The notes below the pieces were generated by a model that saw only the letters and a program-made list of their open reading frames with translations, made no database searches and was not told the origin of the DNA. This document shows positions 2,026 to 53,177 of a DNA stretch of 64,000 bases, piece after piece (the stretch's first letter is position 1; each line of letters starts with the position of its first letter). The DNA comes from Hanamia sp. (GTDB lineage Bacteria > Bacteroidota > Bacteroidia > Chitinophagales > Chitinophagaceae): assembly GCA_965276925.1 (NCBI GenBank), contig OZ255711.1:3724652-3788651 (forward strand), written 5' to 3'. A program made the translations under genes and the position numbers.

Positions 2026-3378
2026 ATGGAACTTCAACCACTTACTGCTATTTCTCCCATTGATGGCCGTTATCGAAATCAACTTACTCGTCTTGATTTG
2101 TATTTTTCAGAATATGCCTTAATAAAATACAGGATAAAAGTTGAAATTGAATATTTTATTTTCTTATCGGAAAAAAAATTTTTTAAGTTAAATACTATCT
2201 CAAAAAAACAATTGATTGCCATCTACGAAAACTTTAGTATTGATGATGCAAAAAAAATAAAAGATACCGAAAGCATTACCAATCATGATGTGAAAGCAGT
2301 TGAATATTTTTTAAAAGAAAAATTAAAAGAGCTTGGCGCTGATGATCTGCAGGAATGGATACATTTTGGCTTAACCTCTCAGGATATAAATAATACCGCC
2401 ATTCCGCTGATGTGGAAGGATGGCGTACAGCAACAATATTTGCCAGCAATAAATGGATTGAAAGATAACCTTGAAAAGCTTGCTGCAGCATGGAAAAATA
2501 TTCCCATACTTGCCAGAACCCACGGCCAGCCTGCATCGCCAACAAAGCTTGGCAAAGAGATCATGGTTTTCGCTGAAAGAATTACTAACCAGCTTGAACA
2601 GTTTAATCACATTCCTTTTACAGGAAAGTTTGGGGGAGCAACGGGAAATTTTAATGCACATTATGTGGCTTATCCAAAGACTGATTGGATCGGTTTTGCC
2701 AATGATTTTCTTGAAAAGAAATTACATATCAGGCGACAGCAACACACCACGCAGATAGAACATTATGATATGCTTGCTGCACATTTTGATGCAATAAAAA
2801 GAATTAATACCATTCTTATTGATCTGTGTCGCGATGTGTGGACCTACATCAGCATGGATTATTTTAAACAGCAAATAAAAAAAGGCGAGACAGGCAGCAG
2901 CGCTATGCCACATAAAATAAATCCTATAGATTTCGAAAATGCAGAAGGCAACCTGGGTCTTGCAAATGCAATGCTGGAGCATCTTTCAGCAAAGCTGCCT
3001 GTTTCACGGCTGCAGCGAGATCTTACAGATTCAACCGTTATAAGAAATATCGGCGTACCATTTGCGCACACTTTCCTTTCTTTTTTTTCAATAAAAAAAG
3101 GTTTGGATAAATTGATATTAAATGAAAATAAAATTAAAGATGACCTTGAGGCTAACTGGGCTGTGGTAGCTGAGGCGATACAAACAATTTTGAGAAGGGA
3201 ACAATATCCAAAACCTTATGAGGCACTGAAAGAACTGACCAGATCAAATGCAACAATAACCAAAGATGCGATCCATAAGTTTATTGACAGATTGAAAATA
3301 TCACCGGAATTAAAAATTGAATTGAAAAAAATAAGCCCGCATAATTATACGGGGACAATATTTAATAATGCTGTTTAA
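2026..3378 (+). CDS. purB: Adenylosuccinate lyase
   Basis: LTAISPIDGRY, TNHDVKAVEY, RTHGQPASPT and the GSSAMPHKINPIDFENAEGN signature. The start is set at MELQP (ATG 2026). Confidence 0.97.
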   Translation: MELQPLTAISPIDGRYRNQLTRLDLYFSEYALIKYRIKVEIEYFIFLSEKKFFKLNTISKKQLIAIYENFSIDDAKKIKDTESITNHDVKAVEYFLKEKLKELGADDLQEWIHFGLTSQDINNTAIPLMWKDGVQQQYLPAINGLKDNLEKLAAAWKNIPILARTHGQPASPTKLGKEIMVFAERITNQLEQFNHIPFTGKFGGATGNFNAHYVAYPKTDWIGFANDFLEKKLHIRRQQHTTQIEHYDMLAAHFDAIKRINTILIDLCRDVWTYISMDYFKQQIKKGETGSSAMPHKINPIDFENAEGNLGLANAMLEHLSAKLPVSRLQRDLTDSTVIRNIGVPFAHTFLSFFSIKKGLDKLILNENKIKDDLEANWAVVAEAIQTILRREQYPKPYEALKELTRSNATITKDAIHKFIDRLKISPELKIELKKISPHNYTGTIFNNAV

Positions 3379-3613
3379 GTTTATAATTTACAATTATTTA
3401 TTCCTTTAAATTATTAAGGGCTTGAATCCCTCCAGAGGGTAAATCTCTATTATATATTCTTATTTCATCGATAACACCATTGAAATAATCCAGGTGACTA
3501 TCCAATTGTTCATAAATATAAAATCAGCAGTACAGAAAAATCAAAATTGTTTACACAGATAATTTATAGGTGATAAATAAATCTTATTGTCGTGCTATTT
3601 CCAAGGTTAGTGT

Positions 3614-4180
3614 TTACTTGGCCTGGTATCTAATAGCTTGACCATGATAATACTTAAGTGCATAGCTATCGTAATAATATTCATCTGTATATATACTACC
3701 ATCCATGTATCTAATGTTTTCCCATGTTATTAAATAAGTTGTCGACAACGGCGAAGAAGTTGTATGAATTAAAAATGTAAGTTTTGTTTTTTCTGGATTA
3801 ACAAATTGCCAATCTACAAGACCATGCAAAGAGTTATTTGCATCCAACAAAGACCCGGTACCATCTGGGTTAAAAGTGTAAGTCTCTATTGAACGGTCTC
3901 CAAAACCGGTAGTGTTATTAGTCCCTCCCTGAAAATAATAGATAGAATCCCCACCATATACAGCACGCAATTCAGTTGTTTTCCATGGAAACGCCGTTAG
4001 TAACTCTTCAGTAAAAGCAGAATCTTTAATTAACACAGTATCCTTAACAGTTAGTGTGTCATTTTTAGTGACTGATACAGTATCAATAATTGTTTTATCT
4101 TTTGTGCAAGAAGTTAACGATGTTGTAATTGACAAAGAAAAAACCAAAATGATTCCTGATAAACTCAATATAGATTTCAT
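3614..4180 (-). CDS. Hypothetical lipoprotein (cargo between purB and its relic copy)
   Basis: MK + hydrophobic stretch + LTSC lipobox, DT-rich linker, beta-rich lipocalin-like remainder. ATG at 4180 is preferred over TTG at 4186. Confidence 0.7.
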   Translation of the reverse strand: MKSILSLSGIILVFSLSITTSLTSCTKDKTIIDTVSVTKNDTLTVKDTVLIKDSAFTEELLTAFPWKTTELRAVYGGDSIYYFQGGTNNTTGFGDRSIETYTFNPDGTGSLLDANNSLHGLVDWQFVNPEKTKLTFLIHTTSSPLSTTYLITWENIRYMDGSIYTDEYYYDSYALKYYHGQAIRYQAK

Positions 4181-4300
4181 AAGCAATTTTTATAAAAATA
4201 GTTTATTAGTTTAAAATTCCTAATTATTTGAAAAAAAATATAAAAGTTTTGAAAAAAATATATGTATGTATTTATAGAGATTTTGAAAAGGGATTATTAT

Positions 4301-4565
4301 TGCTGGAGCATCTTTCGGTGAAACTTTCAAAAAAATTAATGAAGACCTTGATAACAATTGAGTTGTAGTAGCTGAGGCAATTCAAACGATTTTAAGAAGA
4401 GAAAATAATCCTAATCCATATGAAGCATTGAAAGAGCTTACAAGATCTAATTCTGTCATTACAAAAGAAACCATCGTTACTTTTATAGATACTTTAAAAA
4501 TTTCTGATCTTTTAAAAAAGGAAATAAAAAAAATAACCCCGTATAATTATGCAGGTATTTCCTAA
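4301..4565 (+). pseudogene. Degenerate duplicate of the purB 3' end
   Basis: 4301-4316 is identical to purB 2972-2987. After a net 127-nt deletion, 4332-4565 reads KINEDLDNN*VVVAEAIQTILRRENNPNPYEALKELTRSN...ITPYNYAGIS*, 52/75 aa identical to the PurB C-terminus by hand count, with TGG changed to TGA at 4359. Confidence 0.92.
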
Positions 4566-4613
4566 AAATTCTTATATTCATTTTTTATTAGCCAAAACTT
4601 ATAACTGCTTTTT

Positions 4614-5903
4614 ATGAAAAAATTTTACCTGTTTCCTTTATTTATTTTACTTGTTTTGTCTTCTTTTTCGCAAATTAAACTTGATAGTGGTCTGGTTGCA
4701 TACTATCCTTTTAATGGCAATGCTAATGACGAAAGTGGCAATGGCAATAATCCAATTTTTAATAATGCTACTTTAACCAACGATGAACAAGGTAATCCTA
4801 ACAATGCTTATCATTTTAATGGGATTAATAATTATATAGAAATTCCAAATTCAACAAGTATTAATCCTGTAAATCAAATCTCGTTATGTGCCCTTATAAG
4901 ACCAACTGGATTTTATAAAGGCCCGTGCCATGGAAATTCAATAATTATGAAAGGAGATGCAGATTATTTACAGGGAAATTATGCATTACGATTCGATGAT
5001 AATGCTTATACATACGGACAAAATTGTTCCACGAATATTGTTGATACTATTCATCAAAATTTTTATAGTATGAGTGCCCAAACTCCTTCACCAGGTTACA
5101 TGCCTTATATTAATAAAGATCAGTGGTATTGTATCGTTTATACCTATAACGGCTCCCTCGGAAAGTTTTATTTGGACGGAAATCTTATAGATAGTGAGTA
5201 CTCATCTATTACGGGTTTTTCTAATAACTATAATTTATTTTTTGGGAGATTGAATAACTCAACTTTTCCTTATTGGTTAAATGCAGATTTAGATGAGGTA
5301 AGAATCTATAATCGTGCAATCAATAGCCAAGAAGTAACAGCACTTTGTCCTTCTGCTTCACCTTTACCTGTCACGTTAACTAGTTTTGAAACGAATATCT
5401 CTAACAAACAGATAAAATTAAGCTGGCATGTTGAAAATGAGAGTGGTATTGTAAATTATACAATAGAAAGGTCAACATCCACAAGGTCTGATTTTAAAGA
5501 AATCGGGATGGTCAATGCTGATAAAGCATCATCATACACATATATTGATAAAACAGTCTCAATAAATCAGACCTATTACTATAGACTTAAAATTTTAGAG
5601 AATACAAATGCAATCAGTTATTCAGAAATTAACACCGCTTACTTATCTGATAATAATAAAATTGTATTGGTATATCCAAATCCTTCAAAGGGTAATCTGT
5701 CAATTCAAATAAAAGGTTATAGCGGTATAGCGAAGTTGTCTCTTATAAATAGTACAGGTCAAACTGTTTTCTTAAAAGACGAAATTATTTCAAATAATAA
5801 TTTGTTACCAGTTACGTTTCATAATCTTAGTGGTGTATATTGGTTAAAAATTACAACTGGTAGCAACACCTACACACAAAAAGTAATATTTTTAATGAGA
5901 TAA
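4614..5903 (+). CDS. LamG-like jellyroll protein with T9SS type A C-terminal sorting domain
   Basis: Signal peptide, GLVAYYPFNGNAND...LDEVRIYNRA LamG domain, PLPVTLTSF Ig-like module, and a VYPNP...GVYWLKI...YTQKV tail. Confidence 0.88.
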   Translation: MKKFYLFPLFILLVLSSFSQIKLDSGLVAYYPFNGNANDESGNGNNPIFNNATLTNDEQGNPNNAYHFNGINNYIEIPNSTSINPVNQISLCALIRPTGFYKGPCHGNSIIMKGDADYLQGNYALRFDDNAYTYGQNCSTNIVDTIHQNFYSMSAQTPSPGYMPYINKDQWYCIVYTYNGSLGKFYLDGNLIDSEYSSITGFSNNYNLFFGRLNNSTFPYWLNADLDEVRIYNRAINSQEVTALCPSASPLPVTLTSFETNISNKQIKLSWHVENESGIVNYTIERSTSTRSDFKEIGMVNADKASSYTYIDKTVSINQTYYYRLKILENTNAISYSEINTAYLSDNNKIVLVYPNPSKGNLSIQIKGYSGIAKLSLINSTGQTVFLKDEIISNNNLLPVTFHNLSGVYWLKITTGSNTYTQKVIFLMR

Positions 5904-5912
5904 TAATATTCA

Positions 5913-8900
5913 TTGAAGTTCAGTTTATCGCTAACTATCTTACTTCTTTTTTTGCTTAATTCGTACATTGCAAAATCCCAGGTTAATTTAGCCAATGGCC
6001 TTGTTGCGTATTATCCTTTCAACGGGAATGCTAACGATGCCAGCGGCAATGGTAATAATCCAGTATTCAATAATGCAACGCTCACAACTGATAGAATGGG
6101 AAACGCTAATAGTGCTTACCATTTCAATGGTATAGATAATTATATAGAAATTCCCAATTCGCCAAGTATCAATCCTGCAAATCAAATCTCTCTTTGCGTA
6201 TATGTAAGGCCAACAGGTTTTTATTTAGGCCCATGCCACGGAAACTCAATAATAATGAAGGGAGATGCCGATTATTTACCGGGAAATTATGCATTAAGAT
6301 TTGACGATAACGCTTATACCTATGGGAATAATTGTGCAAACAGTATAGTTGATACAGTTCATCAAAATTTTTATGGAGTTACTGCCCAAGCACAGTCGCC
6401 AGGATATTTGCCATATATAAATAAGAATGAATGGTACTGCGTTGTATTTACTTATGACGGTTCATTAGGAAAGTTTTATGTTGATGGAAACCTTACAGAT
6501 AGTGAATATACCTCTGGTCTAACATTTTCTAATGGTTACGATTTATTCTTTGGCAAGCTTAACAATTCGACTTTTCCTTACTGGCTCAATGGCGACTTAG
6601 ATGAAATTAGAGTTTATAACAGAGCCATAAACGATCAGGAAGTTAAGGCTTTGTGTACAACAACATCCGATACTACTGTCATTAACGATTACACTCCTGT
6701 TATTAATTTTAATATTTGCAAAAATCAATTAACCGTTGCAGATGCAACTAAATATAATATCGGTGACACAGTATTATTAATTCAAATGAAAGGTGCAGTA
6801 ATTGATTCAAGTAATACTGCTTCTTTTGGAACAATAACTAATTATAAAAATGCCGGTAATTATGAGTTTAATTACGTAAAACAAAAGATTGGAAATGTTA
6901 TTGACCTTAAGAATACTGTGACACGTCAATATGATATTGCTAATGGAAAAGTTCAGCTAATTAGAGTTCCTTATTTTACAGATTATAACGTTACTAATAC
7001 GCTTTCTTGCTTACCATGGGATGGAAATATAGGGGGCGTTCTGGCATTCAACGTAAAAAATACATTAACCTTAAATGCAGATATAAATGTTACTGGTAAA
7101 GGATTTATAGGAGGCAGAAGCCCAAATACAAATCTAAATGTAGCTAATTGTTATACTGACGGATATTATTTTCCGGTAGGATCAGTATTAGCTGCGGCTA
7201 AAGGTGAATCCATATATGATTTGGGCGATGATAAAAAATTAGGAAAGGCACCAAATGCAACGGGTGGTGGTGGTGGATTGGATCACAACTCTGGTGGTGG
7301 TGGCGGTGGTAATGGAGGCCTTGGTGGGCAGGGCGGTTATCAGGTTTCAGCGTGCGGCGTAGATTTCGATAACGGAGGAAGAGGTGGTAACATTGCTGCT
7401 TATAATAATATTTCAAATAAAATATTTTTAGGAGCTGGCGGTGGATCAGGACATGCAAATGGCCCCAACGGAATTGATATGAACGGAGGAAATGGCGGAG
7501 GAATTATCTTAATAAAAAGCAATACTATAAATTCAAACTCTTACAATATAATCTCAAAAGGAAGTAATGGCCAATACTGTGATTCTACACTATATGTTTG
7601 CAATGATGGCAATGGTGGCGGCGGTTCAGGTGGAACTATTTTAATTGATAATAATATATACTCAAGTAGTGCAAACATAAATATAAGCGGAGGAAAGGGT
7701 GCTGATCTTACAAGTTATCCGTTTGTTACTAATAAAGTTGGTCCTGGAGGAGGAGGAGGAGGCGGTATTATATGGATTAATAATGCATATACACCATCTA
7801 ATTTAGTATTTGTAATAAATGGTGGATTAAATGGAGTTATTCCTTCAGACAATAACAATCCCTACGGCGCCACTCCGGGCCAGCCTGGTCAAACTCTTTT
7901 CAATCTAAAAATTCCATTTGATACAATTCCCTTCAAGTCAAACATAGATTCAGTAAGATTTAAAGATAGTGCTGTAACCTGCAGTAGTTTTGATTTTAAA
8001 GGATTAGGATTTACAAATACGAACGCTATAACTTCGTGGCAATGGAACTTTGGAGATACATCAACTGCCAGCACACAAAACATAAACCATACTTATACAT
8101 CATCAGGATCATACATTGTAAAACTTATAGCTACAGACATAAACGGATGTAAAGACAGCGTTTCAAGACCTCTTACTACTTCATCTTTCAATGTAGCTGT
8201 GAGTAATGATACTGTGACCTGTTTTGGCAACTCAGTTCAGTTAACTGCATCAGGAGGAAACATTTATGCGTGGACACCCGCATCTACTTTAAATAATTCT
8301 TCTACTGGTAATCCTGTTGCTACACCATCATCCACAACTACCTATCATGTACTAATAACCAACTCACTCGGATGCAGTCAATCAGATTCAATAAAAGTCA
8401 CTGTAAATAGTTTACCTGTTATTACTAAATCAAATGATACAAGTGTTTGTAACAATGCATCTGTTCAGTTATCTGCTGGCGGAGGCACCGCTTATTCCTA
8501 GATGCCTGCTTCGTCCTTAAATGATCCAACTATTGCAAACCCGGTTGCCACACCTCCATCTACAACTTTTTATTATGTCACAGTTACTAACAGTAATGGC
8601 TGCGCAAAAAAAGATTCCATAAAAATTAATACAAGCGTACCCGCTGTTATTACAAAGTCTCGTGATGCAGCAATCTGTAAAGGCACATCAGTGCAAATAT
8701 TTGCAAGCGGAGGCGCAAGTTATTCCTGGTCACCAGCTTCCTCATTAAGTAATAGTTCTACTTCAAATCCTGTTGCATCTCCCTCTTCTTCTACTACATA
8801 TTATGTTGCAGTGGATAACGGTTTCGGTTGTACAAAAAAAGATTCAGTAAACGTTTCTATATACCCTGTGCCTGATATAACTATCTCAAATGATACAAGT

Positions 8901-9839
8901 ATTTGCAACAGTAGTTCTGTAAAGCTTTTTGTAGCCGGAGGACGAAGCTACATCTGGTCGCCTTCTTCATCTTTGGATAATCCCGCAAGCCCTACTCCTG
9001 TTGCTTCTCCACTGATAAATACTTTGTATAAAGTAACAGTAACAGATGCTAATTCATGTTCTTTTCAGGATTCTGTAAATATTTCTATAAAGCCTCCAGC
9101 GGTTTTTACAGTTTCTCCTGATGCATCTGTCTGCACACTAACCCCAAAGCAATTGATAGCTGCCGGGGGCGACACTTATCTTTGGTCTCCTTCTGATGGA
9201 CTGAATCAAATCAATATTCCAAATCCCATTGCAACGCCGGATGCTACAACAGTTTATTCTGTTACTATTGTTGAAAGCGTTTGTAACCAAACAGCAACGT
9301 TATCAACTACCCTTACTGCTTTGTCTCTTCCTTCTGTACATGCAACCAGTTCCAATGATCTTACCTGTTCTTTAGGCTCAAGCCAGCTGAATGCATCTGG
9401 TGCTGAAAGTTATACATGGTCTCCATCATCAGGCCTTAATAACAATAATGTTCCAAATCCTGTTGCAACACCTGCCACCACTACCTTATACCATGTATCA
9501 GGAAAAGATAATAATGGATGCACCGATTCAGATACTGTAACCGTTAAAACAGATTACAACATGAACGCTTTGTATCTTTTACCTAATTCTTTTACACCTA
9601 ATGGCGATGGCCTTAATGATTGCTTTGGAGTAAAATACTGGGGAATAGTAAGCGATCTTGAGTTTAGTATTTATAACAGGTTTGGACAAAAAGTTTTCTA
9701 TACAAATAATGCTGCTAAATGCTGGGATGGCACTTACAGGCAACAGCCTCAGGATGCAGATGTTTACGTTTACATCATAACAGCAAAGACTGCCTGCGGG
9801 CTTGTAAACAGAAAAGGAAGCGTTACTTTAATAAGATGA
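5913..9839 (+). pseudogene. Large T9SS surface protein (LamG + Gly-rich + PKD + Ig-like repeats + type B gliding-motility CTD) interrupted by one in-frame TAG
   Basis: ORFs 5913-8501 and 8502-9839 are contiguous and in the same frame. The junction YS*MPASSL matches the repeat consensus Y.W.P.S.L (YAWTPASTL, YSWSPASSL, YTWSPSSGL). It ends LPNSFTPNGDGLND...IYNRFGQKVF...WDG...KGSVTLIR. It could be a pseudogene, a readthrough gene or a sequence error. Confidence 0.75.
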
Positions 9840-9851
9840 TCGTTATAAAAT

Positions 9852-11438
9852 CTATTTATGAATTTCGCTGGTAAAATGAAATTCAATATCAGGATTATTG
9901 GTTCTTTCGGTATTTAAAAACCATTCGCTTTGAGCAAGATATACTATGTGCCCATCCTTATCCTCCGCTATATTAGATGATTTAAATCTTATAAAATCCT
10001 GCAGCTTTTTCGGGTCGTTTGAGGTAAGCCAGCATGCCTTATAATATGGCAATGAGTTTAATTGTACAGAAGCGCTGTATTCATTCAGCAGACGATATTG
10101 TATCACTTCAAACTGAAGCTCGCCCACACAACCAATAATCTTTTTATTGCCCCCAAACTGTGTAAATAATTGAGCCACGCCCTCATCAGTCAATTGCAGC
10201 AAGCCTTTCTCGAGTTGCTTGGTTTTCATGGGATCTTTGTTCACCACTTCCTTAAATATTTCAGGAGAGAAAGACGGTATGCCCGTAAAATAAAAGTCTT
10301 CGCCTTCTGTAAGTGTATCGCCAATTTTAAAATTGCCTGTGTCAAATAAACCCACCACATCTCCCGGAAACGCTGATTCAATTACATCTTTATCTCTTGC
10401 TAAAAAACTATAGGGATTACTGAATCTTACATCTTTATGCAAGCGAACATGATGAAAATATTTGTTGCGCTCAAACTTGCCGGCGCACACTCTAAGGAAT
10501 GCAATTCTATCTCTGTGCCGCGGATCAAGGTTCGCATGAATTTTAAAAACAAACCCGCTGAACTTATCTTCTTCAGGCTCTACAACCCTTGTAGTTACTG
10601 CTCTGTGCTGGGGCAGTGGCGCTATTTGTATAAACGTTTCCAGCAGTTCTTTTACACCAAAATTATTTATAGCACTTCCGAAAAATACGGGAGCTACTTT
10701 TCCTTTTAAATATTCTTCCCGATTAAAATCTCCATAAACACCTTCAATTAATTCCACATCTTCTCTTAATTGCGCAGCATCTTTTTCACCAATTCTTGTT
10801 TGCAAAATCTCATCACTTAAATTGTCCAATGGCAGATAATCTTCTTCAGTCGCTTTCTGATTGGGATTGAACAGCAACAAACTTTTATCATACAAATTAT
10901 ATACTCCTTTAAAATCTCTCCCCATGTTTATAGGCCAGCTTAAAGGATGCAGGCTGATCTTCAATTCTAATTCTATCTCATCTAAAAGATCAAAAGGATT
11001 TTTACCATCGCGGTCAAGTTTATTCACAAACACGATCACCGGCGTATTGCGCATACGGCACACTTCCATCAATCTTCTTGTTTGCTCCTCCACACCTTTT
11101 ACGCAATCTATTACCAGAACTACGCTGTCAACAGCAGTTAAGGTGCGATAGGTATCTTCTGCAAAGTCTTTGTGGCCGGGCGTATCCAGCAGGTTCACCA
11201 AAATATTTTTATACTCAAAGCTCATTACAGATGTAGCAACAGAAATACCGCGTTGCCTTTCTATCTCCATAAAATCTGATGTGGCGTGCTTCTTTATCTT
11301 ATTACTTTTTACTGCACCTGCAGTTTGAATAGCGCCGCCAAATAATAAAAATTTTTCGGTTAATGTGGTCTTTCCTGCATCGGGATGTGAGATGATTGCA
11401 AACGTTCTGCGCTTCTCTATTTCATTCAAATATTTCAT
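9852..11438 (-). CDS. prfC: Peptide chain release factor 3
   Basis: [41 protein letters not shown] and NKLD GTPase motifs. The start is set at MKYLNE. Confidence 0.97.
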
Positions 11439-11446
11439 AAAAGCCG

Positions 11447-11454
11447 CAAAGGTA
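11447..11454 (-). promoter_or_regulatory. Bacteroidota primary-sigma -7 element (TACCTTTG) for prfC
   Basis: Matches TAnnTTTG 8 nt upstream of the ATG. Similar matches precede fsr (25324), higB (28124), the FAD/FeS oxidoreductase (33618), the M16 protease (40519), degT (47990), waaA (48055), sucD (53196) and tRNA-Val (56408). Confidence 0.65.
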
Positions 11455-50800: not shown

Positions 50801-51457
50801 ATGAGCAACCCTGTTTTCACTTTATTAAAAAAAGACTTATTGCTTGAGTTAAGGCAGCAATATGTTTTTTATGGAATATTACTTTATGTGGCCTCCACCA
50901 TTTTTGTTTTATATCTCGCCATGAGCCAGCCCGAAGGCGCAGTGTACAATGGTCTTTTTTGGATGATACAATTGTTTGTTTGCATCAATGCGGTAGCCAA
51001 AAGTTTTTTACAGGAAAGCAGAGGAAGAATGTTATATTATTTTACCATCGCAAGCCCGGTAAGCTTCATTGTTGCGAAGCTTATTTATAACACCCTTGTA
51101 ATGCTGCTGATGGTAATACTTAGCCTGTTACTTTTCAGAATATTATTAGGTAACCCTGTAAATGATTATGTAAAATTTATTGGCATTGCTTGTCTGGGCG
51201 GCATCAGCTTAAGTCTTGTTTTTACTTTGATGGCCGCTATTGCCGCTAAGGCGCAGCAGAATGCAGCAGTGATGGCTATACTTGGTTTTCCGCTAATTAT
51301 ACCTCAATTATTATTATTAATAAGGCTATCAAAATCTGCATTTGGCGAGGCTTTCAGAGGAGGTGCTTTAATGCAGATCACACTTTTATTAATTGCTTTG
51401 GATGTGTTGGTTATTGTATTGGCTATTGTGCTGTTTCCCTTTTTGTGGAAGGATTGA
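50801..51457 (+). CDS. ccmB: Heme exporter protein CcmB
   Basis: LLKKDLLLE start, 6 TM segments, LMAAIAAKA, ILGFPLIIP and LFPFLWKD. Confidence 0.8.
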   Translation: MSNPVFTLLKKDLLLELRQQYVFYGILLYVASTIFVLYLAMSQPEGAVYNGLFWMIQLFVCINAVAKSFLQESRGRMLYYFTIASPVSFIVAKLIYNTLVMLLMVILSLLLFRILLGNPVNDYVKFIGIACLGGISLSLVFTLMAAIAAKAQQNAAVMAILGFPLIIPQLLLLIRLSKSAFGEAFRGGALMQITLLLIALDVLVIVLAIVLFPFLWKD

Positions 51458-51498
51458 AAAGTAAGTTCCTGATTGTTTTGCAAGAATACTATCTCAAT

Positions 51499-52179
51499 CT
51501 ATTTTGCAATAATTACTGTTCCTCCGGAATCTGGTAAGGGTAAATAATTAATTTTTTGTTCCATACAAAATTGTTCCACCGCTTTTCGTGAACCTTTATA
51601 ATTATCATTATTAAAGTCATGAATAAAGATGTAACCGCCGGAAACTAATTTTGGATAAAAAAAAACCAAGCCGTTGTAAATTGGTTCATATAAATCTGCA
51701 TCAATACTCACAAACACAAAAGCTGATCGGATATTTTTCGCAGATTCCGGAAAAAAACCCTTTACGGGTATACATTTTTCAACATATGGCATCAATTTAA
51801 GAACTGCTTCTACAGAAGTATTTGAAAAGTCTTGTTCTCCGGAAGAGAATTTATTTTCTTTTTCAGTGATGATATCCTTATTATCAAAACCTTCAAAAGT
51901 ATCAAAAAGGTATAATGAACGTGTTGGGAAATACTGGTTAATATATCTTGCAAACTTTCCCTTATATACTCCCAATTCCGCAACATCTCCATCAAGTTTT
52001 TTTTGGTAAATCTCCTGGCTTATCAGCTCAAGTGTTGCAAGGCGTATATAGTCAAAATAATTTCTATCTATTTTTCTTTCCCGATTATAATAGCTCAGAG
52101 AGTTTCCTATAAAAACCTTTTTTTTATGAAATGCTTTCCCAAAAAAGAAATTCATACCCTTGCCAAATACTTCTATCAT
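51499..52179 (-). CDS. TylF/MycF/NovP-family O-methyltransferase
   Basis: GDVAELGVYKG, LYLFDTFEGF, KGFFPES, SIDADLYEP and GGYIFIHDF. Confidence 0.9.
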   Translation of the reverse strand: MIEVFGKGMNFFFGKAFHKKKVFIGNSLSYYNRERKIDRNYFDYIRLATLELISQEIYQKKLDGDVAELGVYKGKFARYINQYFPTRSLYLFDTFEGFDNKDIITEKENKFSSGEQDFSNTSVEAVLKLMPYVEKCIPVKGFFPESAKNIRSAFVFVSIDADLYEPIYNGLVFFYPKLVSGGYIFIHDFNNDNYKGSRKAVEQFCMEQKINYLPLPDSGGTVIIAK

Positions 52180-52203
52180 AAATATGAAATAGCAGTTAAA
52201 TCA

Positions 52204-52233
52204 ATTGTACTGTTTCCTTTTGTATGGAAAGGT
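52204..52233 (+). repeat. Diverged direct repeat of the last 10 codons of ccmB (51425-51454)
   Basis: ATTGTACTGTTTCCTTTTGTATGGAAAGGT versus ATTGTGCTGTTTCCCTTTTTGTGGAAGGAT: 24/30 nt, IVLFPFVWKG versus IVLFPFLWKD. Confidence 0.75.
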
Positions 52234-52298
52234 GGAATAGTGTGAAAATTGGAAAATTGGAAGACTGCAATTTTCACATTTGCTAATTATCAAGTTTG

Positions 52299-53177
52299 CT
52301 AATTGGTTTTCTTCATCACCTCTGCCATTGTTTTTCCAATATCAGCGGGGCTTGCAACCACATGAACACCGCATTCAGCAAGTATCTTCATCTTTGCCGC
52401 AGCAGTATCTTCAGCGCCACCAACTATTGCACCTGCATGGCCCATTCGCCTTCCTGCGGGCGCCGTTTGCCCGGCTATGAACCCAACAACCGGCTTGCGG
52501 GAATTTTCTTTTATCCATTTAGCAGCATCCGCTTCCATGCTTCCGCCAATTTCCCCAATCATTACAATACCATCGGTTTCTTTATCATTCATAAATAATT
52601 CCACTGCTTCCTTTGTTGTGGTTCCGATTATCGGATCGCCGCCAATGCCTATTGCTGTTGATATGCCAAGGCCAGCCTTTGCAACCTGGTCAGCAGCTTC
52701 GTAAGTAAGCGTTCCGGATTTGGACACAATTCCTATTTTTCCTTTCTTAAAAATAAAACCAGGCATAATACCCACTTTACACTCATCGGCAGTGATAACG
52801 CCCGGGCAATTTGGGCCTATTAATCTTGAATTAGTATCTAACAAATAACTTTTAACCTTCACCATATCCTGCACTGGTATGCCTTCTGTAATGCAAACAA
52901 TCAATGCTATGCCCGCTTCTGCAGCTTCCATAATTGCATCTGCGGCAAATGCAGGAGGAACAAAAATGATACTTACATCAGCGCCTGTTTGTTTTACGGC
53001 TTCTTCTACTGTGTTAAAAACAGGATTATCCAAATGTGTGGTGCCGCCTTTGTTAGGCGTTACGCCACCCACCACCTTAGTTCCATATTCGATCATTTGC
53101 GTGGCATGAAATGTTCCTTCAGTGCCTGTAAAACCCTGCACAATGATCTTTGAATTTTTATTTACTAAAACTGACAT
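52299..53177 (-). CDS. sucD: Succinyl-CoA synthetase alpha subunit
   Basis: [30 protein letters not shown] and RRMGHAGAI. Confidence 0.97.

What the first reader, a model, noticed from the sequence alone, without database searches (positions are those of the whole stretch)
2972..4565. purB carries a displaced, decayed copy of its own 3' end 1.2-1.3 kb downstream, bracketing a cargo lipoprotein
Seen: 4301-4316 (TGCTGGAGCATCTTTC) is identical to purB 2972-2987 and continues LEHLSVKL versus LEHLSAKL. After a 127-nt frameshifting deletion, 4332-4565 is 52/75 aa identical to the PurB C-terminus, with TGG changed to TGA and its own TAA. Many differences are synonymous (GCG ATA CAA ACA ATT TTG versus GCA ATT CAA ACG ATT TTA). 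So these look like two alleles that each evolved under selection, not a fresh duplication. Known: phage 21 and e14 insert in E. coli icd, supply a replacement 3' end and leave an icdC relic. Inference: an element entered purB at or near the 16-bp block and replaced the gene's tail. No integrase remains in the 0.9 kb between the copies.
Basis: partly seen in the sequence, partly recalled or inferred. Interest (0 to 1): 0.68.

Follow-up and report, generated by a model that had tools for sequence, protein, structure and literature searches.

The report
Displaced purB tail: recombination scar
A dead second copy of the end of the purine gene purB marks where a small lipoprotein gene, carrying its own working purB end, was recombined into a gene-swapping hot spot without any integrase; it is a clear scar of a known kind.

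Summary
An intact purB (2026-3378) is followed by a minus-strand lipoprotein gene (3614-4186) and then a same-strand purB 3' relic (4300-4565). The relic is 52/75 aa identical to the working tail, has TGA for Trp378, a 127-nt internal deletion and its own TAA.

The relic differs from the working tail mostly at third codon positions, as functional purB genes of different species do. It is therefore a formerly selected allele, not a decayed local duplicate.

The phage 21/e14-icd mechanism is not supported. There is no integrase here or in 28 related spacers. The 16-mer is an ordinary conserved coding stretch, identical in 13 of 53 other species.

purB and prfC form a conserved convergent pair across the genus, and their spacer runs from 16 bp to 7.8 kb with varied cargo. 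The same purB-lipoprotein-relic layout occurs in one other genome and two metagenome contigs. In those two contigs a 31-nt prfC-tail scar abuts the relic, and the module is 93-98% identical while its flanks are 70-82%.

Best reading: tail displacement by homologous plus illegitimate recombination, as at rhs/CDI/T6SS loci. Which tail is native in this genome is only weakly resolved. This scan has noted similar displaced tails on other DNA.

The parts
2026..3378 (+). Intact purB (adenylosuccinate lyase, 450 aa)
   Evidence: Open frame. Pfam Lyase_1 plus ASL_C. It is the only full purB in the genome.
2972..2987 (+). 16-nt block shared with the relic (codons M316-S321, MLEHLS)
   Evidence: Exact repeat. 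The same 16-mer is in 13 of 53 other species' purB, so it is conserved coding sequence rather than an att core.
3379..3613 (.). 235-nt spacer between the purB stop and the lipoprotein stop
   Evidence: About 10-40 nt in the related purB-lipoprotein loci G015, G118, L113 and L115. No repeat elsewhere in the genome.
3614..4186 (-). Cargo: 188-190 aa lipoprotein of unknown function (lipobox LTSC; start ATG 4180 or TTG 4186)
   Evidence: ORF. No Pfam or NCBIfam match. 65-76% identical orthologues in 3 genus genomes and 9 metagenome contigs, usually just downstream of prfC. The AF2 model has low confidence, pLDDT 44.
4187..4274 (.). AT-rich upstream region of the lipoprotein gene, ending at the junction with purB-derived sequence
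   Evidence: Read directly. A prfC-tail scar like that of L113/L115 is not demonstrable here: 113 of 300 shuffles score as well.
4275..4289 (+). Probable decayed purB remnant (codons about 303-309, IDFEN)
   Evidence: 14/15 match to other species' purB; 16 of 300 shuffles reach the score.
4300..4328 (+). Relic piece a: purB codons 316-325 (LLEHLSVKLS)
   Evidence: 24/27 nt identical to purB of G132 and G004, closer than to the genome's own working copy (21/27).
4332..4565 (+). Relic piece b: purB codons 369-445 plus TAA. TGA at 4359-4361. Follows a 127-nt deletion relative to purB.
   Evidence: 52/75 aa identity, E = 2e-23. Codon-position pattern of a selected allele. 5 of 43 highly conserved columns changed, including W378*.
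4566..4613 (.). 48-nt spacer from the relic stop to the first LamG gene, of the native type
   Evidence: Relatives with purB directly followed by this LamG gene have 36-51 nt here, with a similar CAAAAC motif shortly before the ATG.
4614..9839 (+). LamG / PKD / CHU_C type IX-secreted protein cluster (3 genes: 4614-5903, 5913-8501, 8502-9839). Older cargo of the same hot spot.
   Evidence: Pfam. The same cluster lies between purB and prfC in G130, G042, G128, G012, G137 and G059.
9852..11450 (-). prfC (release factor 3), convergent partner of purB and right border of the hot spot
   Evidence: tblastn. The purB/prfC convergent pair is kept in about 49 of 51 genus genomes where both lie on one contig.

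Best explanation
The relic is a recombination scar at a cassette hot spot, not the footprint of an integrase element.

In this Chitinophagaceae genus (relatives include Hanamia caeni and a Ginsengibacter MAG), purB and prfC converge on each other. The spacer between their stops is exchanged between species by recombination in the two conserved genes. A small module was cut from a genome with the order purB> <lipoprotein <prfC. It consists of the last part of purB, the lipoprotein gene and that gene's upstream region.

The module was joined into a genome with the order purB> LamG cluster> <prfC. One end recombined homologously inside purB. The other end was joined illegitimately to purB sequence near codon 300-316. 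As a result purB now ends in the incoming tail and stays functional. The resident tail, still attached to the LamG cluster, was pushed 1.2-1.3 kb downstream, where it picked up a stop codon and deletions.

Once built, such a module has purB homology on both sides. It can then move on to other genomes by ordinary homologous recombination, either by double crossover or through a small circle.

Shown: the anatomy, the hot spot, the absence of recombinases, the selected-allele signature, and module transfer between two metagenome lineages.

Inferred: the order of events and that the relic is the native tail in this genome.
For: 1. Hot spot. purB and prfC are convergent neighbours in about 49 of 51 genus genomes where both lie on one contig. 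The gap runs from 16-68 bp (6 genomes) to 7.8 kb. Cargo includes LamG/PKD/CHU_C proteins, a GNAT acetyltransferase, a histidine kinase, a PIN toxin, a methyltransferase, an LRR protein and the lipoprotein. No integrase or transposase was found.

2. Association. Of 127 genus genomes, only G000 and G015 carry a purB tail relic beside an intact purB, and both have the lipoprotein gene between the two copies. Metagenome contigs L113 and L115 show the same layout.

3. Selected allele. Relic versus working tail differs at 17/13/53% of codon positions 1/2/3, like functional inter-species pairs. The relics are nearly pristine at conserved columns: L115 0/37, L113 1/39, G000 5/43.

4. Origin of the module. 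In L113 and L115 a 31-nt copy of the prfC 3' end, including the stop codon (28/31), is fused directly to purB codon 377. This is an illegitimate junction that preserves the lipoprotein-prfC neighbourhood seen in G118, G041, L117 and L118.

5. Transfer. L113 and L115 differ by about 18% across purB nt 1-1110. They differ by only about 7% from there through the tail, the lipoprotein gene, the prfC scar and the first ~75 nt of the relic. They then differ by 22-30% and carry different downstream cargo.

6. Native context. The spacer from the relic stop to the LamG gene matches the spacer from the purB stop to the LamG gene in insert-free relatives.

7. Mosaic purB tails. G015 purB is 85-94% identical to G059 up to about nt 1000, then 71-78%. 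Its 5' sister is G059 (support 0.96) but its 3' sister is G005. The similarity profile of the G000 working tail is discordant with that of its 5' part (Spearman -0.14, second lowest of 50), while the relic's is +0.16.

8. A second scar with the same topology lies in this window at ccmB> <methyltransferase, relic, <sucD.
Against: No close relative of G000 is sampled. Its purB is 64-76% nt identical to all others and synonymous sites are saturated, so trees of the 198-350 nt tail regions are poorly resolved. The discordance statistics are not significant on their own.

The structure is symmetric. The same map arises if a purB-tail + LamG-cluster + prfC piece was imported into a purB-lipoprotein-prfC genome.

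The junction differs between lineages: purB codon ~303-316 in G000, ~294 in G015, 377 in L113/L115. A prfC-tail scar is not demonstrable in G000 or G015. So either there were several independent events or later deletions must be assumed.

The G015 relic is not close to the tail of its nearest relative G059 (73% identity).

No reads could be examined. Competence or another DNA-uptake route in these bacteria is unknown.
Confidence: 0.6

Rival explanations
1. Same kind of scar, opposite polarity. The genome originally had purB> <lipoprotein <prfC. A donor piece made of a purB tail fragment, the LamG cluster and part of prfC entered by a homologous crossover in prfC and an illegitimate join upstream of the lipoprotein gene. 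Under this reading the relic is foreign and the working tail is native.
For: The map is symmetric, so this gives the same structure. Genomes with purB-lipoprotein-prfC exist close to G000: L117 prfC is 94% and L119 purB is 79% identical to G000. Contigs with LamG/orf3> <lipoprotein <prfC (L111, L112, L118) show that the two cargos combine in more than one order. Both tails of G000 are of the same 'TRSN' sequence type.
Against: For L113/L115 the highly similar block has a left boundary inside purB (about nt 1110). This fits a tail+lipoprotein module coming in, not a right-hand import. The G000 working tail, not the relic, is the part discordant with the 5' profile. The relic's best match, G014 (75%), is among G000's nearest relatives by ccmB (86%) and prfC (94%).
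Confidence: 0.25
2. Integrase-mediated element of the phage 21/e14-icd type. It inserted at the 16-bp core with a replacement 3' end, and its integrase and most of its genes were later deleted.
For: Direct 16-nt repeat, unique to these two places in the genome. A replacement tail keeps purB intact. The relic lies downstream in the same orientation.
Against: No recombinase in the 0.92 kb between the copies, in the 12 kb around them, or in 28 related spacers. Among about 49 genus genomes with both genes on one contig, none has a purB-prfC gap above 7.8 kb, and the 28 spacers examined hold no mobility gene. The 16-mer is identical in 13 of 53 other purB genes. Relic homology extends upstream of it in G000 and G015. 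The junction lies at different purB codons in different lineages and, in L113/L115, abuts a prfC tail fragment.
Confidence: 0.05
3. Remnant of a whole second purB (a paralogue or imported copy) that has been mostly deleted.
For: Two MAGs hold additional full-length but frameshifted purB copies (G011:C2, G007:C23).
Against: Those extra copies lie in complete duplicate syntenic regions (MqnA-like gene, purB, LamG) on other contigs of bins with 3-4% contamination, so they are most likely second strains or poor contigs. In four independent genomes only a 3' fragment is present. It starts next to the lipoprotein promoter region or a prfC tail scar and ends in the native downstream context.
Confidence: 0.04
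4. Local tandem duplication of the purB tail followed by neutral decay of one copy, or an assembly chimera of two strains.
For: Direct repeat 1.2-1.3 kb apart. Read-level data could not be checked.
Against: 28% nt divergence concentrated at third codon positions, with only one stop in 77 codons, is incompatible with neutral decay from an identical copy. The genome is one 3.82-Mb contig with 0.27% contamination. The same architecture recurs in G015, L113 and L115.
Confidence: 0.03

Closest known systems
C-terminal (3'-end) displacement at rhs, CDI and T6SS effector-immunity loci (Jackson et al. 2009, PMC2935791; Kirchberger et al. 2017, PMC5361080)
   Same: An intact gene is followed by a dissociated 3' fragment in the same orientation, and that fragment keeps a piece of the conserved region. 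The incoming tip arrives with an adjacent gene. No recombinase is involved. The proposed mechanisms are homologous recombination in the conserved part plus an illegitimate end (HFIR) or a small circular intermediate. Modules later spread by plain homologous recombination.
   Different: Here the gene is a housekeeping enzyme and the two tails are isofunctional alleles (69% aa identity), not different toxins. The cargo is a hitch-hiking lipoprotein gene on the opposite strand, not an immunity gene. There is one displaced tail, not an array.
Phage 21 / e14 insertion in E. coli icd
   Same: Insertion within the 3' end of a housekeeping gene. The insert supplies a replacement tail, and a relic of the old tail remains downstream.
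   Different: Those elements use a tyrosine integrase and a defined att core and carry a prophage-sized element. Here there is no integrase, no specific core and only one cargo gene, and the site is a general cassette hot spot.
Minimal mobile elements of Neisseria (Saunders & Snyder 2002; Snyder et al. 2007; definition quoted in PMC3082526)
   Same: Two conserved flanking genes (purB, prfC) with different whole-gene cassettes between them in different lineages. The cassettes carry no mobility genes and are incorporated by homologous recombination in the flanks.
   Different: The classic exchange leaves no scar. Here one end was illegitimate, so a flank-gene tail was duplicated and cargo was added rather than replaced. 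Exchange is between species at about 75% nt identity. Competence is unknown in this group.
Homology-facilitated illegitimate recombination (de Vries & Wackernagel 2002; Prudhomme et al. 2002; Meier & Wackernagel 2003; cited in PMC5361080; E. coli conjugation case PMC3240628)
   Same: One homologous anchor (purB, or prfC under the rival polarity) plus one junction between unrelated sequences. In L113/L115 that junction joins a prfC tail to purB codon 377 and shares at most 2-3 nt (read).
   Different: HFIR was defined in laboratory transformation. This is a natural product inferred from comparative data, and the uptake route is unknown.

Membership tests
Integrase-mediated insertion with replacement 3' end (phage 21/e14-icd type) | A tyrosine or serine recombinase gene in or next to the insert, or in larger versions of the insert in relatives | tested here: not met
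   The only ORF between the copies is the lipoprotein gene, which has no Pfam or NCBIfam match. The 28 related purB-prfC spacers hold no integrase or transposase.
Integrase-mediated insertion with replacement 3' end (phage 21/e14-icd type) | A specific identical core (attL/attR) that marks the limit of homology between the two copies | tested here: not met
   The 16-mer is present in 13 of 53 other species' purB. Homology continues on both sides of it. Junctions lie at different codons in G000, G015 and L113/L115.
Integrase-mediated insertion with replacement 3' end (phage 21/e14-icd type) | The replacement tail keeps the target gene intact and the old tail remains as a relic | tested here: met
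   purB is open and full-length with both Pfam domains. The relic lies downstream.
C-terminal displacement (rhs/CDI/T6SS type) | An intact gene followed by a same-strand dissociated 3' fragment that retains part of the conserved region | tested here: met
   The relic covers codons ~303/316-325 and 369-445. G015 has the same with codons 294-320 and 385-449.
C-terminal displacement (rhs/CDI/T6SS type) | Resident and displaced tips are separately evolved alleles, not local duplicates | tested here: met
   Codon-position divergence is 17/13/53%, equal to inter-species functional pairs. Few changes at conserved columns.
C-terminal displacement (rhs/CDI/T6SS type) | Tip plus neighbouring gene moves between genomes as a module by homologous recombination | tested here: met
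   L113 versus L115: the module is 93-98% identical and the flanks 70-82%, with boundaries at purB nt ~1110 and relic codon ~402. This was shown in relatives, not in the window's own genome.
C-terminal displacement (rhs/CDI/T6SS type) | Polymorphic toxin with variable toxic tips and cognate immunity genes | tested here: not met
   The gene is adenylosuccinate lyase, the tails are isofunctional, and the cargo is a lipoprotein.
Minimal mobile element / cassette hot spot between conserved genes | The same two conserved genes flank different whole-gene cassettes in different lineages | tested here: met
   purB/prfC pair with gaps of 16 bp to 7.8 kb and at least 7 kinds of cargo.
Minimal mobile element / cassette hot spot between conserved genes | Incorporation by homologous recombination in the flanking genes | tested here: inconclusive
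   Mosaic purB tails in G015 versus G059 and in L113 versus L115 fit this. No breakpoint could be located in G000 because no close relative is sampled.
Homology-facilitated illegitimate recombination | A junction between non-homologous sequences at one end of the insert | tested here: met
   A prfC 3' tail (31 nt, 28/31) is fused to purB codon 377 in L113/L115. In G000 the lipoprotein upstream region is fused to purB-derived sequence at about 4275-4300.
Homology-facilitated illegitimate recombination | Uptake of linear foreign DNA (transformation or conjugation) and RecA dependence | not testable with these tools
   This needs experiments in a cultivable relative.

The most novel reading that the evidence does not exclude
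The tail + lipoprotein + tail-fragment unit behaves as an integrase-free 'self-healing knock-in cassette'. Because it has purB homology on both sides and carries a working purB end, it can enter the 3' end of purB of any related species by RecA-type recombination, either by double crossover or through a circle of about 1.3 kb, without harming the host gene. It adds cargo instead of replacing what is already in the hot spot. The near-identical module in two otherwise 18-30% diverged metagenome lineages (L113, L115), and a second scar of the same topology 47 kb away at ccmB, would then point to a regular route of gene gain in Chitinophagaceae.
Probability: 0.35. Interest if true: 0.6.

Novelty: new member of a known kind. 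Interest (0 to 1): 0.38.

Why it matters
The case shows how a housekeeping gene can serve as a landing pad for new genes without any mobile-element machinery. The incoming DNA brings a spare gene end, and the old end survives as a dated scar.

Such scars record the direction, partners and relative age of gene transfer in bacteria that have few recognisable mobile elements. They also warn annotators that 'pseudogene fragments' next to intact genes can be recombination footprints rather than decay.

The related contigs add two uncommon details. One is a prfC-tail scar that reveals the donor's gene order. The other is direct evidence that the module later moved between species by homologous recombination.

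The principle itself is already described for rhs/CDI/T6SS loci and for HFIR, so this is an informative example rather than a new mechanism.

Tried and rejected
1. Phylogenetic polarity. Identity tables, sliding windows and FastTree trees of purB 5', 3' and relics did not resolve it. G000 is about equidistant (64-76% nt) from all sampled purB genes, so the donor and the native tail could not be fixed. Only a weak discordance of the working tail was seen.

2. A prfC-tail scar in G000 and G015 like the one in L113/L115 was looked for. Alignment scores were no better than shuffles (113/300 and 53/300).

3. An exact-protein look-up of the lipoprotein in public assemblies found nothing.

No read-level test was possible for a circle, an empty site or a chimera.

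5. Cargo function. There is no Pfam or NCBIfam match. The AF2 model from a 9-sequence alignment had pLDDT 44, so no fold search was run.

6. The 235-nt and 114-nt non-coding stretches are not repeated elsewhere in the genome, so there is no MITE or IS. The promoter/terminator scan gave nothing above shuffles apart from one terminator-like hairpin inside the purB tail on the minus strand.

7. A genome-wide scan for tails of at least 28 aa repeated within 6 kb downstream found only 5 other candidate loci (6 hit rows, two of them the same stretch), so long displaced tails are not pervasive.

8. The extra full-length frameshifted purB copies in G011 and G007 were considered as a source of the relic. 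They were set aside as duplicate syntenic contigs of mixed bins.
Full report
**Observation**

purB occupies 2026-3378 (+) and is intact, with Pfam Lyase_1 and ASL_C domains. A 188-190 aa lipoprotein gene lies at 3614-4186 on the minus strand.

A purB-derived stretch follows on the plus strand. The 16-mer at 4301-4316 equals 2972-2987. Codons for LLEHLSVKLS (4300-4328) are followed by a 127-nt gap relative to purB. Then 4332-4565 reads as PurB residues 369-445 with TGA for Trp378 and its own TAA.

tblastn of PurB against the whole 3.82-Mb single-contig genome finds only the gene itself and this relic (52/75 aa, E = 2e-23). The 16-mer occurs nowhere else in the genome.

**Is the relic a decayed local duplicate?**

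No. Relic and working tail differ at 17%, 13% and 53% of first, second and third codon positions. Pairs of functional purB genes from different species of the genus differ at 23/12/53%.

At alignment columns that are at least 90% conserved among 50 genus sequences, the relic has 5 changes in 43, one of them the stop. Functional genes have 0-5. So the relic was a working allele for nearly all of its divergence and was silenced fairly recently.

**Is the 16-mer an attachment core?**

No.
- The same 16-mer is identical in 13 of 53 other species' purB and within one mismatch in 21.
- Other species share longer exact runs (17-19 nt) with the relic than the genome's own purB does.
- Relic homology continues upstream of the block. 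4275-4289 matches the IDFEN codons 14/15 (16 of 300 shuffles do as well).
- In the related genome G015 the relic begins at codon ~294.

**What the locus is**

Across 127 genomes of the genus, purB and prfC are convergent neighbours in about 49 of 51 cases where both genes lie on one contig. The genus includes Hanamia caeni BO-59 and a Ginsengibacter MAG.

The gap between their stops is 16-68 bp in six genomes. In others it is about 0.5 kb and holds a GNAT acetyltransferase next to prfC. In the rest it is 0.7-7.8 kb.

Cargo found in the gap:
- LamG/PKD/CHU_C type IX-secreted proteins
- a histidine kinase
- a PIN toxin
- a methyltransferase
- an LRR protein
- the lipoprotein

No integrase or transposase was found in the 28 spacers examined. 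This fits the definition of a minimal mobile element site: two conserved genes with different whole-gene cassettes between them (PMC3082526).

In the window the gap is 6.47 kb. It holds the lipoprotein gene, the relic, three LamG/CHU_C genes (4614-9839), and then prfC (9852-11450, minus strand).

**The relic goes with the lipoprotein gene**

Close orthologues of the lipoprotein (70-76% aa) occur in only three other genus genomes and nine metagenome contigs. The arrangements seen are:

| Arrangement | Where seen |
|---|---|
| purB> <lipoprotein <prfC | G118, L117 |
| LamG cluster> <lipoprotein <prfC | L111, L112, L118 |
| purB> <lipoprotein, relic> <prfC | G015, L115 |
| purB> <lipoprotein, relic> LamG cluster> <prfC | this genome, L113 |

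Among the 127 genomes, a purB tail relic beside an intact purB occurs only in this genome and G015. The remaining partial hits are contig edges or duplicate frameshifted syntenic contigs in mixed bins.

**Origin and mobility of the module**

In L113 and L115 the relic starts at codon 377. It is directly preceded by a 31-nt inverted copy of the last nine codons and stop of prfC, matching a real prfC tail 28/31. That junction joins unrelated sequences. It preserves the lipoprotein-prfC neighbourhood of the first arrangement in the table above. So the module was cut from such a context and joined illegitimately to purB sequence.

L113 and L115 belong to different lineages, with about 18% mismatches over purB nt 1-1110. 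From nt ~1110 through the purB tail, the lipoprotein gene, its upstream region, the prfC scar and the first ~75 nt of the relic, they differ by only about 7%. After that they differ by 22-30% and carry different downstream cargo: a LamG cluster in one, prfC in the other.

So the module moved between lineages, with one crossover in the purB tail and one in the relic. Their relics are pristine at conserved columns (0/37 and 1/39), as expected for freshly displaced resident tails.

purB tails are mosaic elsewhere too. G015 is 85-94% identical to G059 up to nt ~1000, then 71-78%. Its sister in the 5' tree is G059 (support 0.96), but in the 3' tree it is G005.

**This genome**

The 48 nt between the relic's TAA and the first LamG gene resemble the 36-51 nt between the real purB stop and that gene in insert-free relatives, including a similar CAAAAC motif before the ATG. 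The relic plus the LamG cluster is therefore one unbroken piece of the 'purB-LamG-prfC' type. purB plus the lipoprotein gene is a piece of the 'purB-lipoprotein' type. The join lies at about 4275-4300.

Which piece is resident cannot be settled. G000 has no close sampled relative (64-76% nt to all) and the tail trees are weak. Three weak hints favour an incoming working tail:
- The working tail's similarity profile across species is discordant with that of the 5' part (Spearman -0.14, second lowest of 50 genomes; background median 0.34). The relic's is +0.16.
- The relic's best match is G014, a near relative by ccmB and prfC.
- Genus representatives near G000 by prfC and ccmB lack the lipoprotein gene.

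Against this, metagenome contigs with purB-lipoprotein(-prfC) that are about as close to G000 do exist (L117, L119). I put about 0.6 on 'resident tail displaced by incoming tail + lipoprotein' and 0.25 on the mirror-image event.

**Open points**

Junction positions differ between lineages: codon ~303-316 here, ~294 in G015, 377 in L113/L115. Both G000 and G015 have an internal deletion starting at codons 321-326.

In G015 the left fragment is clearly decayed (6 of 22 conserved columns changed). The right fragment is almost intact, with 3 of 33 changed, all within its first seven codons. This suggests an old scar on the left and a younger tail on the right. Whether these reflect one origin followed by deletions and recombinational refreshment, or several independent events, is unresolved.

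**Comparison with known systems**

The topology is that of phage 21/e14 in icd, but the defining recombinase and att core are absent.

The closest described process is C-terminal displacement at rhs, CDI and T6SS effector-immunity loci. There, an incoming tip with its neighbour gene displaces the resident tip downstream. The proposed routes are homologous recombination with a small circle (PMC2935791) or homology-facilitated illegitimate recombination (PMC5361080; HFIR also occurs in E. coli conjugation, PMC3240628).

The differences here are a housekeeping enzyme, isofunctional tails and a hitch-hiking lipoprotein gene.

**Related notes from this scan**

The last ten codons of ccmB (ending 51457) recur at 52203-52232, after a minus-strand TylF-like methyltransferase gene.

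The repeat is followed by a spacer and sucD that match the insert-free ccmB> <sucD sites of G018, G001 and G014. Three other genomes carry the methyltransferase without a relic.

Earlier follow-ups of this scan on other genomes (glnS, phaB, uvrB, mnmG and others) describe similar recombinase-free displaced tails. They agree with this reading but were not tested here.

**Limits**

The cargo's function is unknown.

**Verdict**

This is a real, well-documented recombination scar of a known kind. The integrase interpretation is not supported. Interest is moderate.

Noticed in passing
window 50801-52299: A second tail-displacement scar. ccmB (50801-51457) is followed by a minus-strand TylF-like methyltransferase gene (51499-52179), then a repeat of ccmB's last 10 codons (52203-52232), a native-type spacer and sucD. 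Relatives G013, G014, G004, G018 and G001 have ccmB directly facing sucD. G021, G011 and G080 have the methyltransferase without a relic.
   Followed up: partly
purB-prfC spacers of 16 genus genomes, e.g. L091 (G042), L095 (G130), L093 (G128): A conserved 164-176 aa GNAT-type acetyltransferase gene sits directly downstream of prfC, in the slot that the lipoprotein gene occupies in other genomes. It is missing at this locus in the window's genome, where CHU_C gene 8502-9839 ends 12 nt from the prfC stop.
   Followed up: partly
G011:C2 (L032 5189-11321) and G007:C23 (L033): Whole duplicate syntenic regions (MqnA-like gene, purB, LamG genes) with many frameshifts and stops, on separate contigs of two MAGs. 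They probably come from second strains or poor-quality contigs in mixed bins, not from real pseudogene arrays.
   Followed up: partly
genome G000:C1 at 963468-963551, 2171569-2171751, 2504111-2504200, 2815712-2815870 and 3475214-3475444: Five further places where the last 28-77 residues of a gene recur on the same strand within 6 kb downstream, outside any long ORF. They are possible additional displaced tails.
   Followed up: no
L115, reverse strand of 490-520 (junction of prfC scar and purB relic): In L115 an ATG contributed by the inverted prfC tail is in frame with the purB relic and gives a 74-aa ORF. In L113 the same ATG is out of frame, so the ORF is probably accidental.
   Followed up: partly
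window 4614-9839: Three tandem LamG/PKD/CHU_C type IX-secretion cargo genes with internally repeated Ig-like modules. Gene number and repeat number vary widely between relatives at the same site.
   Followed up: no
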